Positions 3,213-18,866 of a stretch of 20,000 nucleotides of DNA are shown here, piece by piece; within the stretch, counting starts at the first letter, position 1, and each line of letters starts with the position of its first letter. The stretch lies in the IMG/VR virus record IMGVR_UViG_3300047678_000102, one strand, 5' to 3'. Below the pieces are notes generated by a model that worked only from the letters and a program-made list of their open reading frames with translations, did not search any database and was not told where the DNA came from. The position numbers and the translations under genes are program-made. This DNA comes from an uncultured virus (IMG/VR IMGVR_UViG_3300047678_000102) (Duplodnaviria; Heunggongvirae; Uroviricota; Caudoviricetes).

Positions 3213-3572
3213 TTAGTTTGAATTTGAAAAACAATCTATTATACCAACCACCTTATCTAGTACTATCCTACCTAAATCTTCATTAAAATAATTAATAAAA
3301 CAATTATTTACCACTACTAATTCATACCCCTTTTGCCAACACAAAGATTCTTTTATTTGATCAGACTGTTGGCATCTAATTAATCTATCTTGTCCATGTA
3401 TAGGCTTATAATGAAACACCCCATTTAACTCTATTGCTAATTTAATATCTACGACAAATATATCTATTTCTAAACCACCCAATAATTCTCTATTGTTATA
3501 GAGAATTTCCCTTTCTGGATAAATAATTGTTAGTTCTTTTCCAAAAATTCTTCTAATAAAGACCTCACACAT
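3213..3572 (-). CDS. PD-(D/E)XK / Vsr-DUF559-like endonuclease domain; probable C-terminal part of the 3530-4300 gene
   Basis: LEIDIF...LAIELNGVFHY...DQIKESLC..KGYELVVV motif pattern. Confidence 0.75.
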   Translation of the reverse strand: MCEVFIRRIFGKELTIIYPEREILYNNRELLGGLEIDIFVVDIKLAIELNGVFHYKPIHGQDRLIRCQQSDQIKESLCWQKGYELVVVNNCFINYFNEDLGRIVLDKVVGIIDCFSNSN

Positions 3573-4300
3573 CCAAAATCGCCATTTTTATTCCTGTATT
3601 TAGCATTACAAGATTGTGAACAAAATACATTTGTAGAAATATTCTTTCTTCCTATTGGCACAATTAATTGTTTGTCACATTCTCGGCAATTTACTTGAAT
3701 CCTTTCTGTTTCTGGCCCCTTACTTTTATTACTACAATTTCTACTGCAAAATCCAAATTTGTACCCGTTACTTGCAGATTTAAATATAGACCCCTTACTA
3801 CGTAGAAATTGTGTATTACATCTACGGCAACGTATTTCAATCTTATCTTTCATACGTAAATCTAAAAATTCAAATTTAGTTATTGTACTTATACTACTAA
3901 TATTCTCATAAACAGAATCAATGTTGTATTTCTCAGTGTGCCCGCGATACTCTGGATTTTTCCTTTTTGTTAACCAAACATTCACACAATCTCTCGAGCA
4001 TATAATTGGTTTTGCGGTAGTGATTCTCTTAGAAGAAGTTGTAAACATTTTGTTACATATATCGCATTTGATTTCAATTTGTTGGTACTTTTGATGACAA
4101 GGAGGTTTACATTTGATAGAACAAAAACTTGTTTTATTTCTTAATAATGTTCCTTTATTTCTTCTAAACTGTTTTAAACATTTAGGGCATTGAACATCAA
4201 TCATCCTACGATTATTTGCGGATTCAAATTCTTGTTCTGAAGTAATAATTATAAGTTTCGATGAATTAATCATACAATAATTCAAACTTTCCTTTTTCAA
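3530..4300 (-). CDS. Multi-zinc-finger (CxxC...CSxxC repeats) DNA-binding part of a putative homing endonuclease
   Basis: Four CxxC...CSxxC units (CSIKC, CSRDC, CSRNC, CSQSC); the real start may be ATG at 4273. Confidence 0.75.
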   Translation of the reverse strand: MKKESLNYCMINSSKLIIITSEQEFESANNRRMIDVQCPKCLKQFRRNKGTLLRNKTSFCSIKCKPPCHQKYQQIEIKCDICNKMFTTSSKRITTAKPIICSRDCVNVWLTKRKNPEYRGHTEKYNIDSVYENISSISTITKFEFLDLRMKDKIEIRCRRCNTQFLRSKGSIFKSASNGYKFGFCSRNCSNKSKGPETERIQVNCRECDKQLIVPIGRKNISTNVFCSQSCNAKYRNKNGDFGCVRSLLEEFLEKN

Positions 4301-5025
4301 GAACAGACTTTATATCATTTGTTTTTTTACCAGTTCGATGGTCAACAACCAAACTGGTTATATAATTATATGTTCTTATTTTATCCCCCCTTCCTCTGTT
4401 TTTAAAGTCTTTCTCCTTAATTTTTACATAATTCGTATGATTTTGTGTATTGTATAAGTTATTAACCTTGACTGAGAGGATCTTTCTTGCGTCTTTTCTA
4501 TTATGAACTTGGTCCCTACCGTTAATAAACACACATAATCCAGTTGGTAGATGTTTAAGTCGCACCGCAGAATTTACGCAATTCGCATTCCTTCCACCTG
4601 CCTTTTGACTACCAGTTTGAAAAGACTCTTCCAGTTCGTTCTCATTCAGAGCCAGTAACGTCCTTTCTGGAGGAAGGGGCAAAATAGCGACTGAAACCAA
4701 CGATGTCTGCCTGCGACCTTTATGTTCGGTTGGAGGCACTCTTTGTACGCAATGCTTCCCAGCTTCCATTAAGAAAGCCCTACCTGCATTATGTCCAGTC
4801 AGTTTTGCTACGACATGACCATTAGATTGGTCATAAATTTCAGATTTGATGTTGTGACGTGATGCATACTTGACGTATGCAGAGAATAGATCATCTACGA
4901 ACAGTTTAGAATCTGTTCCACCCTCTCCGAATTGCAACTCCAGTATTATTTCTGTTGCATTCTCAAAGAGAGTCCCTCTGGTTATTTAGAGAAACATTAC
5001 TCGAAACTTGTTGAATCTGATTCAT
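4266..5025 (-). CDS. Class I peptide chain release factor homologue (RF1-type, lacking canonical domain 1), joined by a +1 frameshift at 4965
   Basis: EAGKHCVQRVPPTE..GRRQTS, AGGRNANCVNSAVRLKHLPTG, KIRTYNY, VVDHRTG. The leader starts at ATG 5025 (AGGAG SD) or ATG 5214. Confidence 0.85.
4962..4977 (-). promoter_or_regulatory. prfB-like programmed +1 ribosomal frameshift site
   Basis: AGG GAC TCT CTT TGA G; the +1 frame continues ENATEIILELQFGEGG into the release-factor body. Confidence 0.8.
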
Positions 5026-5214
5026 GATACAATCTCCTATGGTAAGATGACTACTAAAACAATTAGACACAACTTGATCAACTTGAGACATTATTTGTTG
5101 TAAATACTTTTTCTTCTCTTCCCAATCATCACCTAAACCCAATCCAACTAGTGGATGGTTATTGTTGTCACTATTAATACCTTTAGATTTCAGAATCCAT
5201 TTTAGAGTTAGCAT
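4963..5214 (-). CDS. Zero-frame leader ORF of the release factor (83 aa, or 20 aa from ATG 5025)
   Basis: Ends QRDSL-TGA at the shift site. Confidence 0.6.
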   Translation of the reverse strand: MLTLKWILKSKGINSDNNNHPLVGLGLGDDWEEKKKYLQQIMSQVDQVVSNCFSSHLTIGDCIMNQIQQVSSNVSLNNQRDSL

Positions 5215-5220
5215 ACCTAT

Positions 5221-5226
5221 ATTATA
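5221..5226 (-). promoter_or_regulatory. Possible -10 box for a leaderless transcript
   Basis: TATAAT 6 nt upstream of ATG 5214; no convincing -35. Confidence 0.35.
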
Positions 5227-5253
5227 GTTTGTAACTAATGAAAAGAAAATGTA

Positions 5254-5706
5254 TTATTCTACTGCCTTTTTGGGTTTGTAAGTGGTTGTCACCAATTTGT
5301 AAGGCATTGTATAAAAAGTAGCCCATACAAACTTTCCTTTAGAATGCGATTGAGCAAATGCTTTTGCGGTTCCCGGATCAATACCAGAATATAAACAAGT
5401 ATACTTACCTCTGATGAACTTTATCTGAAGTTCTTGTTGTTGGGGCCAATACCTAAACCAAGCAACCCAAGAAGATCCTACGTGAAGAGTCATGTTTCCA
5501 TCAACAAATGCGTTTACATCGTCTTCTTTTACTTGATCTATAAGATCATCAATATCCATATCCTCAAAATTTTGAGGAGGTCCTTCTTCTTTCTCTTCTT
5601 CTGGTTGCTTCTTTGAAAAATATTTAGAAGGAACAGAAGAATTCTTCTGTTGTCCTATTCTATTTTGAATCTGTTGTGATATATTTACCGGTCGATGTTT
5701 AGCCAT
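5254..5706 (-). CDS. KTSC-domain protein with charged, probably disordered N-terminus
   Basis: VGSSWV...Y.PQQQELQIKF...LYSGI...F....SKGKFV pattern. Confidence 0.8.
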   Translation of the reverse strand: MAKHRPVNISQQIQNRIGQQKNSSVPSKYFSKKQPEEEKEEGPPQNFEDMDIDDLIDQVKEDDVNAFVDGNMTLHVGSSWVAWFRYWPQQQELQIKFIRGKYTCLYSGIDPGTAKAFAQSHSKGKFVWATFYTMPYKLVTTTYKPKKAVE

Positions 5707-5712
5707 TGTATA

Positions 5713-6054
5713 TTACCAAGTAATATTCAAATACCCTTCAGAAAGCATTTGTGCTACACCGCTTCCTAATCTGCGAAATGTATACACTTGCGCGCCTTGC
5801 ACTCCAGATGTTTGTGAAGATCTAATTTTAGTATTAACGATCCCCAATCCTGAATCTAAGACTGTCATACCACTCACGCCATTTCCATATCCACTAGCAC
5901 AACTAGTTACAATTAATCCGCTTACACCTCCAAAACGGTTTGTGTTTCGCCATTCTAGATTCCATTGGCTGATGCTAGTTGGTGGAACCAACGAAATAGT
6001 GATAGTGCCATCTACTTCAGGTTGTATCGTAATATCAGAATAAATTACTGGCAT
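5713..6054 (-). CDS. Small putative virion structural protein (beta-rich, Ser-Gly-rich)
   Basis: AGAGGAG SD inside the upstream gene end; T/S/G/V-rich; six SG dipeptides. Confidence 0.7.
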   Translation of the reverse strand: MPVIYSDITIQPEVDGTITISLVPPTSISQWNLEWRNTNRFGGVSGLIVTSCASGYGNGVSGMTVLDSGLGIVNTKIRSSQTSGVQGAQVYTFRRLGSGVAQMLSEGYLNITW

Positions 6055-7183
6055 CTTATACAGCTCCTCTTTTTATTTGTGCTAAAAATCGCTTTACTGT
6101 TGGTCCATACCATTTGCCTTTCCCTGTAACAGTGGGATATCCATTTTTATTTAATTGGTCTGCAATCTTCAGGTGGGAAAATCCTTGATTTGACAATATT
6201 TGGACTATTTCCTTCTCTTTAGATAAATCCCTTCTTTTTTCCAACCTAGATTTTACTGCAAGGTGATGTATTCTACTCATCCTTTCACTCAATTCTTGTT
6301 TGTGTTCCCGTGCATACTTTCTTCTACCTGCAGCCATTTTTCGTTTTGTTTCTTCATTTGGAATAGACGGTTTTATACGCCCTGATGCATATCCCTCTAA
6401 TAAAGTCTTTATCATTTTATCTTTCTTTTCTTGAGTCCATTCCATTTCCCCGTTTTCATGCATCTGTTTAAGTTGAGATGCTCCCCGCTGTCTATATTCT
6501 TCAATGTGTTTTCGCACAAACTTCCTGAGATGTTCTCCGGCTGCTCGCCTTTGTCTTTCTGTTTTGGGAAGTTCACTGTTTTGTTTTGCAATTCGTTCCG
6601 AAGCTCTCTTCCTTTGTTCAGGAGTAGCCATTATTCCCAATCTTGTCAGTTCTCTAATCCTTTGTGCAGATCTCATATTTTGCTCTGGGGTATTTAGTTT
6701 ACCCTGTTTGTGTAATAATTTCATTCTTTCACTAGCTGCTCTAGCCATTTCTACAGTATGTGGAGGAGATCCGGCTATTTCATTACAATTGTAACCGTTA
6801 TGATAAGAATCTAATTTTAAAATCCATTTATCTTCGGCAACAATTAAATTTTCCTCTGTGCAAAATTCCAATACCCAAAATTCAAAGGAACTTTTTCCGT
6901 GTTTGTTCCAAGAGTTTTGTAACTTAATATTCTCGTGTTTTCCTTTTTCCAACTGCAGATAATGGCCCCGACACCTATCAACTACACTTTTTGATGACCC
7001 AACGTATCCCTTGTTGGATATAAAATTGTATACAATATATATCCCTGGTTTTCGTAAATTTTTATATTCTATCGTGCCGATACGTGTAATCGGTATCAAA
7101 ACAGAAGTCGGTGGAATTAGTGAAATAGTAATAGTTCCGTCTACTTCAGGTTGAATAGTTATATCTGCGTATATTGGAGGCAT
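5974..7183 (-). repeat. Diverged 81-nt direct repeat (5974-6054 and 7103-7183) encoding the same N-terminus
   Basis: 24/27 aa identical and 60/81 nt identical by manual alignment. Confidence 0.95.
6056..7183 (-). mobile_element. GIY-YIG homing endonuclease with C-terminal recombinase-like HTH domain
   Basis: PGIYIVYN...GYVGSS...R...H..H.N..LQ.SWNKHG..SF.F; GYN; C-terminal IADQLNKNGYPTVTGKGKWY. Confidence 0.9.
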
Positions 7184-7201
7184 TATTTACTCCTTACTTT
7201 A

Positions 7202-8320
7202 TTATAATAATCCAGCCGTCGGAGACCCCATTGGACCACCAGACCAAACAGTAGGATCTACTCTAAAACAAACCGCACCGCTATTACTTACTATTCCCAT
7301 TTTCTGTCCATAATCTCCAGAAGCGAATCCATTTGGATTAAATAATCCACTAATAAGTGTAATTTGCCCACTTCTCCCTACCCACACTGGAGATCCTATA
7401 GATCCTGAAAATAATCCTAATCCACTAGTAAATTGAAGAACCCCATCAGTATATACATTACATTGTATCCCACTTAATACATTATCCCAAACGACTCCTA
7501 TAGCTGGCATTCTACCTGATACAGATGCCATAGCAATTCTAATGTGCCCAGACTGAGTTATGTGAACCGCTCTGACACCAGAGATTATTTCTTGCGTCAT
7601 ATTGGTTACATTTGTCCCACTTGCATAAGTAGAAACATATTGAGATATAGAAGCAATGGTCCCACTACTAAGGTGATATGTGCTTAGTTGTCCAGATTGA
7701 ACATTACCTGATACAATACTACCACTACCAACACCTATTAAAACTGCTTTATACCCACTCCCATCGGAGAATATTTGCACCCCCTGATTAGAAGGTAGTG
7801 TTAGAGAAGGCAGACTGTTTATTGACGATCCGCTAACTGGTGTTATTGTCAAACCGCTTTGGGAATTGTTGACTACTGTGGTCAACCAATGGGGGCCAAA
7901 ACTAGCAGTGTCTCCATTCAATGCACCTAAAAGAATACCAGATATTGATCCGCTTGCATAAAACGATACTAATGCTGCTCTGTCAACTTGACCAAATGTA
8001 TAAAGATTGTTCCCTGATTGATTATTTACACCACCAACAACATTTGCAATTGCTTGAGGTGTAACTAGAGGAACAGCTGCGGCCCAATCGTTGTGAGCCA
8101 TCTGCACACTATTTTCAGCACCCCTTGCAAGAATGTTAAAAGTAGGTCCAGATCCTCCTTGCAAAATTAAAACTTCTGCATCAATAATGGTGCGGAATTG
8201 ACCAGAGATATCAGTTGGCCAATTATTAACACCAGATTGAATAAGAAGAGTGGAAGCCCCAGATGTGAGTCTTCCACTCAGATTTGCAATAGCACCTAGT
8301 TTATACAGTTCAGCAGTCAT
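7202..8320 (-). CDS. Putative virion structural/decoration protein, very Ser-Gly-rich
   Basis: 27 SG dipeptides in 372 aa; the C-terminal MPAIGVV...GSPVWVGRSGQIT...QKMG resembles capsid-cement-like domains. Confidence 0.65.
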   Translation of the reverse strand: MTAELYKLGAIANLSGRLTSGASTLLIQSGVNNWPTDISGQFRTIIDAEVLILQGGSGPTFNILARGAENSVQMAHNDWAAAVPLVTPQAIANVVGGVNNQSGNNLYTFGQVDRAALVSFYASGSISGILLGALNGDTASFGPHWLTTVVNNSQSGLTITPVSGSSINSLPSLTLPSNQGVQIFSDGSGYKAVLIGVGSGSIVSGNVQSGQLSTYHLSSGTIASISQYVSTYASGTNVTNMTQEIISGVRAVHITQSGHIRIAMASVSGRMPAIGVVWDNVLSGIQCNVYTDGVLQFTSGLGLFSGSIGSPVWVGRSGQITLISGLFNPNGFASGDYGQKMGIVSNSGAVCFRVDPTVWSGGPMGSPTAGLL

Positions 8321-8323
8321 TTA

Positions 8324-8994
8324 TTATATTCCAACAATGCCAAAACCAGATTCTTCCACTATAGTAGCAAACATTCTTTCCCATGCATGGGTCTTTGACG
8401 GTTCTTGAACATCTCCAAATTCTAATTCATCTGCAAATTTAATTGGATTGTGTTTGGAAAAGAATTCTTTGAATATTTTAGCACGAACCACAAAAATTGT
8501 ACCAGCTATATACTTCATTGGTCTGTTTTTGTCAAAATCAAACATCTGACAATAGTTTCTATGTTCGTGGGTGCTTCCATTATACATCTCACAAAAAAGC
8601 CATTTACCACTCCCAATCATCCCTAATTTATCATATCCAAACATACAATTTAATTTATCTTGATTAAGTAATGGTTTAAAAAGCTCATTTCTTCTTTTAG
8701 GAGTGTTGGATTTACTATGGCACTGAAAAATTATATCCCCATTTCCTCCATTTTGTATCCACTCATTAATCAGTCTTAAATCAGTCTTAAATTACCACCA
8801 CAATCTTTCCCTTGATTTGGACTTTTAATTACTTTGGCCGATGGGAAATCTTTAAGAATAATATGATCAAACAAATCTGATTTATCATGCACAAGATTGA
8901 AATACATCTCATGAAACTGTAAACTATTCAAATACCCCCTGATTTCATCCCATTGGTCTAAATAATATAAATGACAGAAACAAACTATTTGCAT
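8324..8994 (-). pseudogene. RgpF-like (rhamnan synthesis F) glycosyltransferase interrupted by an 11-bp tandem duplication
   Basis: HLYYLD, NQGKD.GG, HSK, AGTIF, HAWERMF motifs are spread over two ORFs; removing one repeat unit fuses them in frame. Confidence 0.85.
8768..8789. repeat. 11-bp tandem duplication (AATCAGTCTTA)x2
   Basis: Read directly from the sequence. Confidence 0.95.
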
Positions 8995-8996
8995 AA

Positions 8997-9497
8997 TCAA
9001 TTATTCTCTTTGTGGCCAATTGCATAAATATCTTGACCGTCCCTTATCTCAATTGTCGTCTTCTTAAATACAGACATCCAGTCTTTTAATATATTAGGAT
9101 GGACGTTTTGATAATATTCGTTTTGTTTAAGAACATACCCATCAGCACCGTGGGGTTGTCTACCTAATGTAGCAGCAGTAAGAATAAATACCCCATCGTC
9201 TTCTAATATATCAAAAGCCGTTTGACAGATTTCTTTCCCATAAGATGTGTGTTCCAAACATTCTGTACTAATTACTGTATCAAATTTCTTTCCATCTTGG
9301 GGTCTCCAAGTTGCTCCATCTGCAATCAAATCAACACCATTTCCTGGTATAATATCTATGCCAAAATATAAAATTTCAGCAGTGAATAAATCTCTACAAC
9401 TACCATTCACATTCTTTGAACCAATTTCTAATACACTCTTTCTCGGTTGAAGATGTTTTAATGTTCTTCTAACAAAATCGTAAGCTTCAATGTGCAT
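8997..9497 (-). CDS. Class I SAM-dependent methyltransferase
   Basis: VLEIGS..VNG, YFGIDI, FDTVISTECLEH, L..DGVFILT. Confidence 0.9.
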   Translation of the reverse strand: MHIEAYDFVRRTLKHLQPRKSVLEIGSKNVNGSCRDLFTAEILYFGIDIIPGNGVDLIADGATWRPQDGKKFDTVISTECLEHTSYGKEICQTAFDILEDDGVFILTAATLGRQPHGADGYVLKQNEYYQNVHPNILKDWMSVFKKTTIEIRDGQDIYAIGHKENN

Positions 9498-16430: not shown

Positions 16431-16814
16431 TTAACCAATTAGACTATCACTTATGGTTTGGGTGTCTATTTTACAATTAAGTTTGGCTGTACATTCTCTG
16501 TATACATCAGCCAACACGCTACTATACCATTTTCCCCTCCCAGAGAGCGTCCTTTGCCCAGTAGAATTGAATATTTTAGCAATTTGTATGAATGAATGCC
16601 CTAAGTTATGTAATTCTACTAACTTATTTGTTATCATTTCTACAACTTTATTTCGATCTCCAAGTTTTTTATTTCTATATTCTGGGTCTTGCCATCTAAG
16701 TTTCGAAGAAACACTTTTTGCTTCTCTAGATTCTTTTGTATTGACTGCCTTTTTATGTTCCTCTGATTGATTCATTTTAACCAATCTTTCCAATTGTTTA
16801 CTTCTTCTTGCCAT
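16431..16814 (-). CDS. C-terminal DNA-binding part (recombinase-like HTH) of the split GIY-YIG endonuclease
   Basis: WQDPEYR repeat shared with the upstream [27 protein letters not shown] parallels the 6056-7183 C-terminus; GAGGAG SD before ATG 16814. Confidence 0.75.
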
Positions 16815-17440
16815 AACTTTCTCCTCATATCTTTCATATTACTTTTAAACTTTTGATCCTTCCACTGTTCTATTGCGTTTTTACTTCTTTTACACCTTTC
16901 TTCATCAGTATAAATCCTATCCCTGCATTGTTCGGAAGATAATTCAATTCTCATTTTCCGAAACTCAGGATCTTCCCAAAGCTTTTTAAGCTTTAGAGAA
17001 GCTCTTTCTTTGTGTAATTTCATATACTCTGGATCTTCATACATTTTCCTCATTTTATTAGAGAAAAACTCTCTCATTTCTGAAGTCCATACTTCTCCAC
17101 CCGGAGTTAAATTATACCCATTAGTATATGTATTTAATTTTGATATCCATTCAACTTCCTGTTTGGGTAACTCACTTTCTACATAACACCCACAAATATA
17201 GAATTTAAATGCCTGTAGTCCATAAATATCCCATTCCCGTTGCATAAAAACATTATCGTGAGTACCTCGTATTAAATACCTTAAATGACATCCCCATCGA
17301 CCACCAATACAATTTGAATACCCAACATATCCTCTGTTTGATCGTGTGTTCCACAATAAATAGACCCCACATTTATTTTTATGTTGTCTAAAACATTTTA
17401 GAGATATGTTGTCTATACATTCAAATTCATCTAAAATCAT
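16772..17440 (-). mobile_element. GIY-YIG homing endonuclease, N-terminal part
   Basis: CGVYLLWN...GYVGYS...RW..H, H.N..MQ.EWD.YG..AFKF, NGYNLTPGGE; ATG 17440 has a GAGGA SD (alternative TTG at 17461). Confidence 0.85.
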
Positions 17441-17453
17441 ATTTAATTCCTCG

Positions 17454-18866
17454 TCATCCAATCAAAGTATCACTTATTGTAGGTGTTGCAGAATATGGAA
17501 ATATAATTTCGCTGGTTTGCACGTCACTAAACATTCTAAAAAGTAGCGTTTGGAAAGTGTTTAATGTCCCACCCGCGCCACGGCTATTTGAATTAAACAC
17601 CCATGCATAGTCGCCTTGGATTAGATTAACCGACCCGCTATGTACCGAATAGAATGGTTCCCAAGTTGATAACTGAGTCATCACTCCCATTCCCATTCTA
17701 TCAAGATAGAAACTTGCTCCGTTAGTATAAGGAGTAGTTTGAGTAAATCTAAAATATTGGCTCGTAGGTAGTATTATAGGTGTTCTAAACACTCCAGTAA
17801 AGGCAGCATAATTTGTAGTGAGTGTAGATAAATCAATTGTAAACGAGTTGTTATTTCCAGCAGCGTCTGTTATGACATTGCTATTCTGATCAATTAAATC
17901 TACAGTAAGAATACCAGTAGCAGCATTACCATCTCTACGCATAAACAAACAAACAGAATACTGAGTTAATGGTAGTAATGTACCACTAGTACCATCTTGA
18001 CTATTTCCAAATTCTTGCTCTAATTGAATTTGTGTTACACCATTTCCTAAAAACTGTATAGATTCCCCTGGTCCATAAGTCAAAGATGCTTCTGCAAAAA
18101 TATTAGTTCCTGGAGTTCCAACTATAATATCCCAATTATCTGGAGTGTTAGCTATTGTATAAGTATCAAACCCACTATTTGTAAGTATATTACCACTTGC
18201 ATTATCTTGACTTCCGTCGATGGCGTTGATAAAATTTGTAGCATTACTACCTAATGGCCAGTTGAAGTCAAAAGGACTTGCAGCACCAGTACCAGTAATT
18301 GTAAGACCTTCATTACCAGCGGTCGCCCCACCGATATAAGAATCTTGTGTGCAAAGAATCTGTGTGGTTTCAGCAAATATATTTTGTAGAATCAAACCAT
18401 CTGTTGGCCGATTTACAGAAGTAATGACTATACCATTACCAACCCCAGTAAAATTTGGCCCTGGATTAGACACAATTTGAGGTATTGATGATACCGTCTG
18501 CTGTAGTATAGTTGCACCAGCAATTTTCATCTGTCTAATAACTTCATTGATAGAAGTTAATGTATTTAATTGCGTCAGTGTTAGAGATATCTGAGGATTA
18601 TCCCTAAACACCATTCTGTTAATTGTTTGATCTGCTACTTGTGAAGCAAGATTTCCAATAGAATCGGAATTCAACTGAGAAATATATGCACTACCAACAA
18701 TTGCTTGAATATCAGATTCTGCATTAAATTGCGCTACTATACCAGTAGTAGTGTTAGTTAGATTTTGTAGCTGTGCGGATTGATTGATCCTCATCTGACT
18801 GATAGATAATCCGCATTTTCCAAGTCTATTAAATAAGTTACCTGTCGCATTTGAGAACGAAATCAT
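17454..18866 (-). CDS. Putative virion structural protein with a carbohydrate-binding-like jelly-roll region
   Basis: T/N/G-rich; NILTNSGFD......PDNW pattern typical of CBM4/9-like domains. Confidence 0.6.
   Translation of the reverse strand: MISFSNATGNLFNRLGKCGLSISQMRINQSAQLQNLTNTTTGIVAQFNAESDIQAIVGSAYISQLNSDSIGNLASQVADQTINRMVFRDNPQISLTLTQLNTLTSINEVIRQMKIAGATILQQTVSSIPQIVSNPGPNFTGVGNGIVITSVNRPTDGLILQNIFAETTQILCTQDSYIGGATAGNEGLTITGTGAASPFDFNWPLGSNATNFINAIDGSQDNASGNILTNSGFDTYTIANTPDNWDIIVGTPGTNIFAEASLTYGPGESIQFLGNGVTQIQLEQEFGNSQDGTSGTLLPLTQYSVCLFMRRDGNAATGILTVDLIDQNSNVITDAAGNNNSFTIDLSTLTTNYAAFTGVFRTPIILPTSQYFRFTQTTPYTNGASFYLDRMGMGVMTQLSTWEPFYSVHSGSVNLIQGDYAWVFNSNSRGAGGTLNTFQTLLFRMFSDVQTSEIIFPYSATPTISDTLIG

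What the first reader, a model, noticed from the sequence alone, without database searches (positions are those of the whole stretch)
4590..4598. Universal GGQ catalytic motif of the release factor is GGR; possible decoy or dominant-negative factor
Seen: GGT GGA AGG in SQKAGGRNANCVNSAVR. AGG is at least two substitutions from either Gln codon, so a single base error is unlikely, and the flanking motifs are intact. Canonical domain 1 is absent. Known: GGQ positions the water for peptidyl-tRNA hydrolysis and its Gln is methylated by PrmC; some Gln substitutions keep partial activity. Inference: the protein may bind stop-codon ribosomes without efficient release (host shut-off or altered readthrough), act as a decoy against defences that target release factors, or be PrmC-independent.
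Basis: partly seen in the sequence, partly recalled or inferred. Interest (0 to 1): 0.85.

Follow-up and report, generated by a model that had tools for sequence, protein, structure and literature searches.

The report
Phage release factor with GGR motif
A bacteriophage carries its own shortened translation-termination factor, apparently made through a deliberate one-base ribosome slip, in which the universally conserved catalytic glutamine is an arginine; the change is real but is seen in this one phage only, and its effect is untested.

Summary
On the minus strand, 4598-4590 reads GGT GGA AGG, and the Arg aligns with the Gln of GGQ in solved RF1. AGG means Arg elsewhere in the same gene, and contigs from a second sample carry the same letters.

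The gene belongs to a tailed phage. It is a member of a family of RF1-like factors without domain 1 that I found only on viral or metagenome contigs. It does not start at TTG 4937. An SD-led 20-codon leader (5025-4966) ends in CTT TGA G, and a prfB-type +1 shift enters the RF frame. The same cassette sits in 34 of 40 distinct relatives' loci, with TGA, TAG or TAA, and in 7-8 loci it is doubled.

GGR is private to this phage: 118 of 119 database homologues and 48 of 48 locus-derived relatives have GGQ, and none is more than 60% identical. The protein keeps 53 of 54 conserved columns and shows no faster evolution.

Best reading (0.5): a still-selected factor that PrmC cannot methylate and that probably releases peptides more slowly. 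The decoy or dominant-negative idea is untested.

The scan had noted prfB-type sites in other phage genes and in a viral aRF1, but not this family.

The parts
5034..5038 (-). Shine-Dalgarno AGGAG, 8 nt before the leader ATG
   Evidence: Read. Relatives have GGAG/GGAGG in the same place before their leader ATG.
4966..5025 (-). Leader ORF of 20 codons (MNQIQQVSSNVSLNNQRDSL), ending in the slippery CTT
   Evidence: ATG-leader options of 83, 42 or 20 codons. I chose 20 because of the SD and because relatives have leaders of 8-28 codons. The choice of start is an inference.
4973..4979 (-). Purine-rich SD-like AGAGGGA upstream of the shift site, spaced 5 nt (most relatives and E. coli prfB have 3 nt)
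   Evidence: The weaker spacing is noted; function is inferred by analogy.
4963..4968 (-). +1 shift site CTT TGA (next base G); after the slip the next codon is GAG 4964-4962
   Evidence: a single CTTT step gives one open 315-aa reading. The same site lies in phase, 4-23 (mostly 11-12) codons before GxGG, in 34 of 40 distinct loci.
4266..4964 (-). Release-factor frame: 232 codons plus TAA; RF1-like domains 2, 3 and 4 only
   Evidence: Pfam PCRF and RF-1; NCBIfam; PDB alignment; AF2 model with pLDDT 93.2, TM 0.89-0.91 to ribosome-bound RF1.
4728..4736 (-). Tripeptide 'anticodon' position: CCT CCA ACC = PPT (RF1-type PxT)
   Evidence: Aligns to PVT of T. thermophilus RF1. PPT occurs in 33 of 49 distinct locus-derived sequences.
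4590..4598 (-). GGT GGA AGG = GGR in place of GGQ (the finding)
4578..4580 (-). TGC = Cys, four residues after the Arg, where the family has K (101), R (10) or T (5) of 119; found only in this window
   Evidence: A possible charge-compensating partner of R124 (inference).
3213..4300 (-). Zn-finger/HNH-like ORF (3530-4300; an ATG at 4273-4271 overlaps the RF stop) plus a nuclease-like ORF (3213-3572): a free-standing homing-endonuclease-like pair directly downstream
   Evidence: PHROG HNH/homing endonuclease hits. Homologues abut the RF gene of L015 on the opposite strand.

Best explanation
Minus strand 5025-4266 encodes a phage-borne class-I release factor of the RF1 lineage that lacks domain 1.

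How it is made: translation most likely starts at an SD-led 20-codon leader. At CUU UGA G the ribosome slips +1, as in bacterial prfB. The product would be about 252 aa: the leader plus domains 2-4.

The substitution: in this phage the catalytic GGQ is GGR. I read this as a lineage-private but tolerated substitution in a protein that is still under selection. The factor still recognises stop codons (PPT, GxxD and GRRQTS elements are intact) and still places its Gly-Gly loop in the peptidyl-transferase centre.

Expected consequences: with Arg in place of Gln it cannot be N5-methylated by PrmC. It probably hydrolyses peptidyl-tRNA more slowly or with poorer exclusion of other nucleophiles. That makes it an attenuated, methylation-independent release factor, not a dead gene.

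Shown: the sequence, the alignments, the conservation, AGG = Arg, and the cassette with its conservation.

Inferred: that the frameshift actually occurs, which start is used, and everything about activity.
For: 1. GGR aligns to GGQ, AGG = Arg in this gene, and the letters are identical in a second sample's contigs.

2. There is no sign of decay. The window differs from the family consensus at 1 of 54 columns conserved at 90% or more (family median 1). An HMM built without it scores it 334.3, against a family median of 336.6. Its root-to-tip distance is 0.60 against a median of 0.75. G122, G123 and the rest of domain 3 are kept.

3. It looks expressible. The SD, ATG, 20-codon leader and CTT TGA lie in the family's standard position, 12 codons before GxGG. 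There is no ATG, GTG or TTG in the RF frame upstream of the site. The first RF-frame start (TTG 4937) would cut strand E4-11 of the model.

4. Codon path. Relatives use CAA (19) or CAG (15), so AGG is 2-3 steps away. The one-step Arg codons CGG and CGA are rare in this phage (10 and 24, against AGG 61 and AGA 137). That fits an Arg that has been there for some time.

5. Four residues on, a family K/R (111 of 119) is a unique Cys, encoded TGC against AAR, 3 base changes. Net charge of the loop is therefore conserved.

6. Literature passages read (PMC4691834): the main-chain amide of this residue is what contacts the catalytic water; Q-to-P kills activity; a Q-to-E variant keeps 'reasonable' activity (citing Shaw and Green 2007, not held). 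[quoted passage not shown]
Against: Gln is kept in 118 of 119 and 48 of 48 relatives (the two sets overlap and are not independent) and in all cellular release factors.

Only one phage lineage, one 131,259-bp contig, has GGR. No relative above 60% identity exists in the collections searched, so persistence of Arg through speciation is not shown.

A tandem CA-to-AG mutation could give AGG in a single recent event.

I found no measurement of Q-to-R in a bacterial release factor in the papers I could read. A reference title (Mora 2003, seen in the reference list) says GGQ is essential in vivo in E. coli. In yeast, an eRF1 Q182E variant could not be propagated even beside a wild-type copy (PMC12440015).

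The R124/C128 pairing is not statistically special. The window has 11 unique residues in about 215 columns, and its loop region has 2 deviations, which is not an outlier.
Confidence: 0.5

Rival explanations
1. A recent loss-of-function or strongly hypomorphic allele of a dispensable accessory gene. The Gln codon was hit, possibly by one tandem double substitution, too recently for other damage to accumulate, and the gene is on its way out.
For: It is a singleton among 167 relatives. The terminal branch is long (0.47, 90th percentile), so the event cannot be timed. Phage RF genes are accessory: they are missing from most phages, and 6 of 40 relatives even lack the cassette. GGQ is reported as essential in vivo for cellular RFs (reference title only).
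Against: Sequential decay predicts other hits at the 53 remaining conserved columns before a second hit in the same codon; none is seen. The cassette and decoding motifs are intact. The same allele is present in contigs of two samples. The codon is a preferred Arg codon, not a one-step one.
Confidence: 0.25
2. One reading: a neofunctionalised factor that binds stop codons but does not hydrolyse (dominant-negative, decoy or termination brake). It would raise readthrough or frameshifting, or shut off the host.
For: Decoding elements are kept while the catalytic residue is changed. Catalytically dead GAQ-RF1 stays on the ribosome and RF3 cannot remove it (PMC3988563). Yeast eRF1 Q182E was enriched in a readthrough screen and was not tolerated beside the wild type. 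Phages hold many CTT-TGA shift sites that termination rate would tune (scan notes, untested here).
Against: No call tests binding or release. If hydrolysis were no longer needed, the invariant GG and the domain-3 helix should be free to drift, yet they are kept. An A-site blocker would also block the +1 slip, which needs an empty A site. Lack of domain 1 is shared by nearly all the GGQ relatives, so it says nothing.
Confidence: 0.12
3. A by-product of homing-endonuclease traffic. The conserved DNA that encodes the GGQ loop is the target of, or was co-converted with, the endonuclease gene just downstream. The odd codons (CAR to AGG, AAR to TGC) would be an immunity or repair scar tolerated at some cost.
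For: An HNH/nuclease-like pair abuts the RF stop codon. Its homologues abut the RF gene of L015, a 53%-identical relative. Multi-base codon changes cluster within 15 bp.
Against: L015 keeps GGQ. The loop region of the window is not an outlier in deviations (2, against a family spread of 0-5). No cleavage site is known.
Confidence: 0.05
4. An artefact or recoding: a sequencing or assembly error, or AGG decoded as Gln in this system.
For: None beyond the oddity itself.
Against: The codon needs two or three base differences. Contigs from a second sample are identical. AGG aligns to invariant Arg columns in the same gene. The major ORFs of the window do not lengthen when TAG or TGA is read as sense.
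Confidence: 0.02

Closest known systems
Bacterial release factor 1 (PrfA)
   Same: PCRF and RF-1 domains, PxT tripeptide, and the fold of domains 2-4 (TM 0.89-0.91 to ribosome-bound RF1).
   Different: No domain 1. Scores 176 bits against the prfA cutoff of 400. His of GRIHTS is Gln and the Ile is Arg, as in RF2. GGR in place of GGQ. Made through a frameshift, which a survey of 12,000 bacterial genomes did not find for prfA (PMC12421855).
prfB (RF2) autoregulatory +1 frameshift, CUU UGA C
   Same: Short leader, slippery CUU followed by a stop, and often GGGGG/GGAGG 3 nt upstream.
   Different: The gene is RF1-like. The leader is not part of domain 1. The stop may be TGA (27), TAG (6) or TAA (1) at the proximal site of 34 loci, whereas 0 of 8,164 bacterial prfB motifs have TAG. 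7-8 loci carry two cassettes in series.
Mimivirus/Megavirus class-I release factor recoding (Jeudy et al. 2012, PMC3521657; abstract read)
   Same: A virus-encoded release factor whose synthesis needs recoding at internal stops; read there as bacterial-style autoregulation.
   Different: That factor is eRF1/aRF1-type in a eukaryotic virus and uses one frameshift plus one readthrough. This one is bacterial-type in phages and uses only +1 shifts.
PrfH (release factor H, partner of RtcB)
   Same: A class-I RF homologue without domain 1.
   Different: TIGR03072 scores 40-41 bits against a cutoff of 166.65. No RtcB was found in the window. Stop-decoding motifs are retained here.
Phage RF1/RF2 of stop-codon-recoded phages (Borges et al. 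preprint 10.1101/2021.08.26.457843; passages read)
   Same: Phage-borne class-I release factors.
   Different: Those sit in TAG- or TGA-recoded phages as part of a code-change module. This window reads as the standard code and has no tRNA gene.
Engineered GGQ variants (GAQ-RF1; RF2 Q253P, 4v9n; RF1 GGD/GGS, 9mtq/9mtr)
   Same: Changed catalytic tripeptide in an otherwise normal factor that still binds the A site.
   Different: Those are laboratory constructs. This is a natural allele, and Arg was not among the variants I could read about.

Membership tests
Bacterial class-I release factor superfamily (PCRF + RF-1 domains) | Pfam PCRF (PF03462) and RF-1 (PF00472) above gathering score | tested here: met
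   71.2-82.1 bits (cutoff 24) and 60.3-61 bits (cutoff 35).
Bacterial class-I release factor superfamily (PCRF + RF-1 domains) | GGQ catalytic tripeptide | tested here: not met
   GGR aligned to GGQ.
RF1 (PrfA equivalog) | NCBIfam equivalog cutoff | tested here: not met
   NF001859 176.4 bits against 400; TIGR00019 166.8 against 423.25.
RF1 (PrfA equivalog) | PxT tripeptide at the decoding tip | tested here: met
   PPT aligns under PVT.
RF1 (PrfA equivalog) | N-terminal domain 1 | tested here: not met
   The PCRF match starts at profile position 76-109 of 194 even when the upstream ORF is joined. The leader is 20 codons. The model has domains 2-4 only.
RF2 (PrfB) | SPF tripeptide and NCBIfam cutoff | tested here: not met
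   PPT, not SPF; TIGR00020 138.1 bits against 370.
RF2 (PrfB) | +1 frameshift site CUU UGA after a short leader | tested here: met
   The sequence feature is present and conserved. Actual frameshifting was not observed.
PrfH | TIGR03072 cutoff and an RtcB neighbour | tested here: not met
   39.9-41.3 bits against 166.65. No RtcB among the window ORFs scanned.
ArfB/ICT1 | GGQ domain alone with a basic C-terminal tail | tested here: not met
   21-22 bits against a cutoff of 100; domains 2 and 4 are present.
Phage short RF1-like family (PHROG 19918 in part) | 50-60% identity to about 220-250-aa phage or metagenome proteins; GEGGxDSKLF, QR[VI]PPTE, GR[RK][QH]TS and GRGxKIRTYN motifs | tested here: met
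   phrog_19918 at 2e-38. 119 homologues at 47-62% identity. 53 of 54 conserved columns are kept. The best of the representative cellular genomes reach only 31-38% identity (best 80 of at least 592 matches).
Phage short RF1-like family (PHROG 19918 in part) | Leader plus CTT_stop +1 cassette about 12 codons before GxGG | tested here: met
   Window: yes. Family: 34 of 40 distinct loci.

The most novel reading that the evidence does not exclude
Phages carry their own class of domain-1-less release factors whose synthesis is gated by one or two prfB-type slip sites at UGA, UAG or UAA. Because near-identical factors sit behind different stops, they may read all three stop codons, which would make them natural omnipotent bacterial-type RFs that regulate themselves. 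In this phage, Gln-to-Arg at the catalytic tip, with Lys-to-Cys four residues on, would have turned the factor into a methylation-independent slow or non-releasing stop-codon binder that tunes termination and recoding during infection.
Probability: 0.12. Interest if true: 0.85.

Novelty: new variant of a known kind. Interest (0 to 1): 0.6.

Why it matters
GGQ is among the most conserved motifs in biology. A natural, otherwise intact release factor with Arg at the Gln position is a ready-made test of what that side chain, and its PrmC methylation, are for.

The setting matters at least as much. The phage family around it appears to use the prfB frameshift switch on an RF1-like gene, with UAG and UAA as well as UGA, and sometimes with two switches in series. 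A 2016 review calls the RF1/UAG counterpart of the prfB switch unknown. A 2025 survey found no TAG in 8,164 bacterial prfB motifs.

If these cassettes work, they show how phages sense or set the host's termination capacity. They also mean that gene callers mis-annotate this whole family as 5'-truncated ORFs.

Tried and rejected
- The window's own genome is not held. Megablast of 4000-9000 against phage records found no match.
- A first custom code, TTTG=L, shifted at the wrong places. CTTT=L gave the single intended step.
- Joining the whole 83-aa upstream ORF does not restore domain 1.
- Search for closer relatives or other GGR alleles:
  - IMG/VR by protein.
  - JGI/ENA metagenome contigs: 9 loci, best 56% over most of the protein (71% only over a 38-residue fragment, L069), own contig absent.
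  - A word search limited to residues 108-150: 4 candidates, none with GGR.
  - A degenerate DNA pattern for Q.AGG[R/S]N[A/V]N in IMG/VR: 4 matches, none a release factor.
  - A second pattern had too few specified bases and was not re-sent.
- AGG reassignment was rejected. Stop-codon recoding of the window was rejected.
- No tRNA genes in the window or in 6 relatives' loci.
- No RNA holder was listed among the sequencing runs, so nothing can be said on expression.
- The promoter/terminator scan gave nothing above shuffles for promoters. It did flag one small hairpin at 4995-4972, just before the slip site, of unknown meaning.
- I tested whether decoding motifs co-vary with the stop at the slip site. 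They do not: QRVPPTE + GRRQTS occurs with TGA, TAG and TAA.
- I tested whether the window or L015 (both with the neighbouring endonuclease) are outliers in loop-region deviations. They are not.
- Papers not held: PMC5079439, PMC2175178, PMC60236. The primary data on Gln substitutions (Shaw and Green 2007; Seit-Nebi; Mora 2003) were therefore seen only as citations or titles.
- The paper behind PDB 9mtq/9mtr was not found.
- Scan-notes look-ups by sequence and by place were empty.

Full report
**Observation.** The minus strand of the window reads GGT GGA AGG at 4598-4590, inside ...FQTGSQKAGGRNANCVNSAVRLKHLPTG.... The ORF finder lists it as 4266..4937 (-), 223 aa, starting at TTG.

- Pfam finds the C-terminal part of PCRF (profile 109-194 of 194) and the RF-1 domain.
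- phmmer against PDB chains puts T. thermophilus RF1 first (E 2e-33). In the printed alignment GGR lies under GGQ, PPT under the PVT 'tripeptide anticodon', and GRRQTS under GRIHTS.
- The codon is not a recoding. The other AGG codons of the gene fall in columns that are Arg in 116 of 119, 119 of 119 and 84 of 119 (plus 28 Lys) homologues. The window's main ORFs do not lengthen if TAG or TGA is read as sense.
- It is not a one-assembly error. Contigs of a second moss-metagenome sample (X3/X4, probably one data set filed twice, possibly the same campaign) match 4515-4752 and 4749-5148 with no difference.

**Where it sits.** The window is from a tailed phage. It holds a 1386-aa tail-fibre protein, GIY-YIG and HNH homing endonucleases, DNA methyltransferases, a glycosyltransferase and an S8 protease. 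GC is 37.5%. The stops of 21 ORFs are TAA 18, TGA 3, TAG 0. There are no tRNA genes. The protein is on record from one contig of 131,259 bp only. No whole genome is held.

**The real gene model.** Just upstream, in the -1 frame relative to the RF frame, an ORF ends ...AGAGGGA CTCT CTT TGA G.

- Reading CTT-T as one step gives a single open 315-aa frame.
- The long upstream ORF does not supply domain 1: PCRF still begins at profile position 76.
- Relatives settle the matter. In IMG/VR loci, short SD-led leaders (MSKK..., MKKK...) end in CTT TGA or CTT TAG, and the +1 frame continues as (F)[DES]xxxEIILExxFGEGG.
- I held 65 sequences: 59 IMG/VR loci, 5 metagenome loci and the window. I dropped 11 duplicates, 8 fragments or odd lengths, 4 without a GxGG match and 2 full-length RF1 genes.
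- Of the remaining 40, 34 have an in-phase CTT_T(GA|AG|AA) site 4-23 (mostly 11-12) codons before GxGG. Two of the dropped loci (L050, L051) also show it, and L057/L058 have it inside domain 2.
- The proximal stop is TGA in 27, TAG in 6 and TAA in 1.
- Seven loci (L006, L011, L020, L022, L062, L064, L065), and by eye also L002/L008, carry two such sites in series. The combinations are TGA+TGA, TAA+TAG, TAA+TGA, TAG+TAG and TAG+TGA. Each site has GGGGG or GGAGG three bases upstream.
- In the window the cassette is standard: AGGAG 5038-5034, ATG 5025, 20 codons, CTT 4968-4966, TGA 4965-4963. No start codon lies in the RF frame upstream of the site. The internal SD-like AGAGGGA is spaced 5 nt instead of 3.
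- Starting at TTG 4937 instead would remove half of the first beta strand of the model.
- No reads, RNA or peptides show that the slip actually occurs. It is inferred from conservation and from the identity of the site with prfB.

**The family.** The best 119 homologues out of 5.8 billion clustered proteins are 166-300 aa and 47-62% identical. Many come from contigs of 100-670 kb.

- The representative genomes of 185,579 cellular species give only ordinary RF1/RF2 at 31-38% identity (best 80 of at least 592 matches). The family therefore looks phage-specific.
- NCBIfam scores are far under every equivalog cutoff: prfA 176 against 400, prfB 138 against 370, prfH 40 against 167.
- An AlphaFold model built on 50 sequences (pLDDT 93.2) superposes on ribosome-bound RF1 domains 2-4 at TM 0.89-0.91 and about 2 Å.
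- The decoding elements are a mosaic. QR[VI]PxTE resembles RF1. GR[RK] resembles RF2. Gln or His stands where both have His.
- The same QRVPPTE + GRRQTS pair occurs behind TGA (10 loci), TAG (3) and TAA (1). L017 and L018, with the same decoding and catalytic-loop motifs, differ in having TAA versus TAG. So the stop at the slip site is interchangeable. This fits either a factor that reads all three stops or a switch set by the host's factors. I cannot tell which.

**How special GGR is.**

- In a MAFFT alignment of the window with 119 homologues, the column is Q in 118 and T in 1 (P0110).
- In 48 distinct locus-derived relatives it is Q in 48. The two sets overlap.
- A word search restricted to residues 108-150 found no other protein sharing the GGR loop. 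A degenerate DNA pattern found no GGR release factor in IMG/VR.
- The metagenome scan found nothing closer than 56% over most of the protein.
- GGR is therefore private to this lineage, and whether it persists within a sub-lineage cannot be tested.

**Decay or function.**

- The window departs from consensus at 1 of 54 columns conserved at 90% or more (family median 1).
- It scores 334.3 against an HMM built without it (family median 336.6). Its root-to-tip distance is below the median. Its terminal branch is long (0.47), but that is because it has no near neighbour.
- GG, the domain-3 helix, the decoding motifs and the expression cassette are all intact.
- Relatives use CAA (19) or CAG (15) for the Gln. 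These are 34 correctly matched rows; 6 rows hit another GG motif and were dropped. AGG is therefore 2-3 changes away.
- AGG is a preferred Arg codon here, unlike the one-step CGG and CGA.
- Four residues on, a K/R column (111 of 119) holds a unique Cys encoded by TGC, so the loop's charge is conserved.
- These points favour an Arg that has been carried for some time by a protein still under selection. They are not proof. A tandem mutation could make AGG at once, and the R/C pairing is not statistically unusual.

**Mechanism.**

- In passages I read, the main-chain NH of this residue contacts the catalytic water, the side chain packs the pocket that selects water, Q-to-P abolishes release, and Q-to-E keeps reasonable activity (PMC4691834).
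- Methylation of the Gln orients it and speeds release (PMC5799190).
- Dead GAQ-RF1 stays bound and resists RF3 (PMC3988563).
- Yeast eRF1 Q182E raised readthrough and was not tolerated beside the wild type (PMC12440015).
- From recall only, not seen here: Shaw and Green reported modest rate losses for most Gln substitutions.
- On this basis I expect the GGR factor to bind stop codons, to be blind to PrmC and to release peptides less well.
- My odds are:

| Reading | Confidence |
|---|---|
| Attenuated but working factor | 0.5 |
| Recent null allele | 0.25 |
| Homing-endonuclease scar | 0.05 |
| Artefact | 0.02 |

**What is in print.**

- Phage RF1/RF2 are reported for recoded Lak, Agate and Jade phages (preprint passages).
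- A giant-virus eRF1-type factor needs a frameshift plus a readthrough (Jeudy 2012, abstract).
- The 2016 recoding review calls the RF1/UAG counterpart of the prfB switch unknown.
- A 2025 survey found no TAG among 8,164 prfB motifs and no programmed shift in prfA.
- RECODE's CUU-stop cases are all bacterial prfB.
- My searches found no paper on a +1 cassette in phage RF1-like genes. The library lacks most subscription journals, and I did not read supplements.
- Earlier notes of this scan report prfB-type sites in other phage genes and in a viral aRF1, but not this family.

**Verdict.** GGR is a real, private variant in an otherwise healthy gene. The more general result is the conserved prfB-style switch, single or double and at any of the three stops, in a phage-specific family of domain-1-less release factors.

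Noticed in passing
L006, L011, L020, L022, L062, L064, L065 (and L002/L008); sites 10-23 codons apart upstream of position 1501 or 10001: Two prfB-type +1 slip sites in series before the RF frame. The stop pairs are TGA+TGA, TAA+TAG, TAA+TGA, TAG+TAG and TAG+TGA, each with GGGGG/GGAGG 3 nt upstream. This may be a double sensor of termination capacity.
   Followed up: partly
L042 + L061 (one IMG/VR contig) and L063: The RF gene is split after ...INGRD (query residue 150) by an ORF with reverse-transcriptase and group II intron maturase domains. This looks like a group II intron inside a phage release-factor gene.
   Followed up: partly
window 3213-4300 (-) and L015 2192-3187 (-): A Zn-finger/HNH-like ORF plus a nuclease-like ORF (the two overlap out of frame at 3530-3572, perhaps one broken homing endonuclease) sits directly after the RF gene. 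Homologues sit at the 3' end of the RF gene of a 53%-identical relative, on the opposite strand.
   Followed up: partly
window 5713-6054 (-) and 6056-7183 (-): The GIY-YIG endonuclease ORF and the small ORF after it share their first 28 residues (24 of 28 identical), as if the endonuclease had landed in a gene and copied its start. A second GIY-YIG ORF lies at 16772-17461.
   Followed up: partly
P0110 (metagenome protein, contig of 10,900 bp): The only other departure at the catalytic column is GGT (HQKAGGTNTN), together with PSN in place of PPT, for 3 deviations at conserved columns in all.
   Followed up: no
L057, L058: The slip site (CTT TGA / CTT TAG) lies inside domain 2, after ...ARRGL/ARRSL, instead of before it. 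The N-terminal part of the factor itself therefore serves as the 'leader'.
   Followed up: no
L015, L021, L025, L027, L028, L032: Six of 40 distinct short-form loci lack an in-phase CTT_stop site. L028 has GTT TGA after a 7-codon leader, and L021 may start directly at Met-Ile-Ile-Leu-Glu.
   Followed up: no
P0053, P0061, L012, L013: Some family members carry a C-terminal extension of about 60 aa with Cys pairs (...CDWCLEY...) after the RF core.
   Followed up: no
window 4972-4995 (-): A small hairpin (8 pairs) ends 3 nt before the CTT of the slip site and includes the SD-like AGAGGGA. It was flagged by the terminator-like scan.
   Followed up: no
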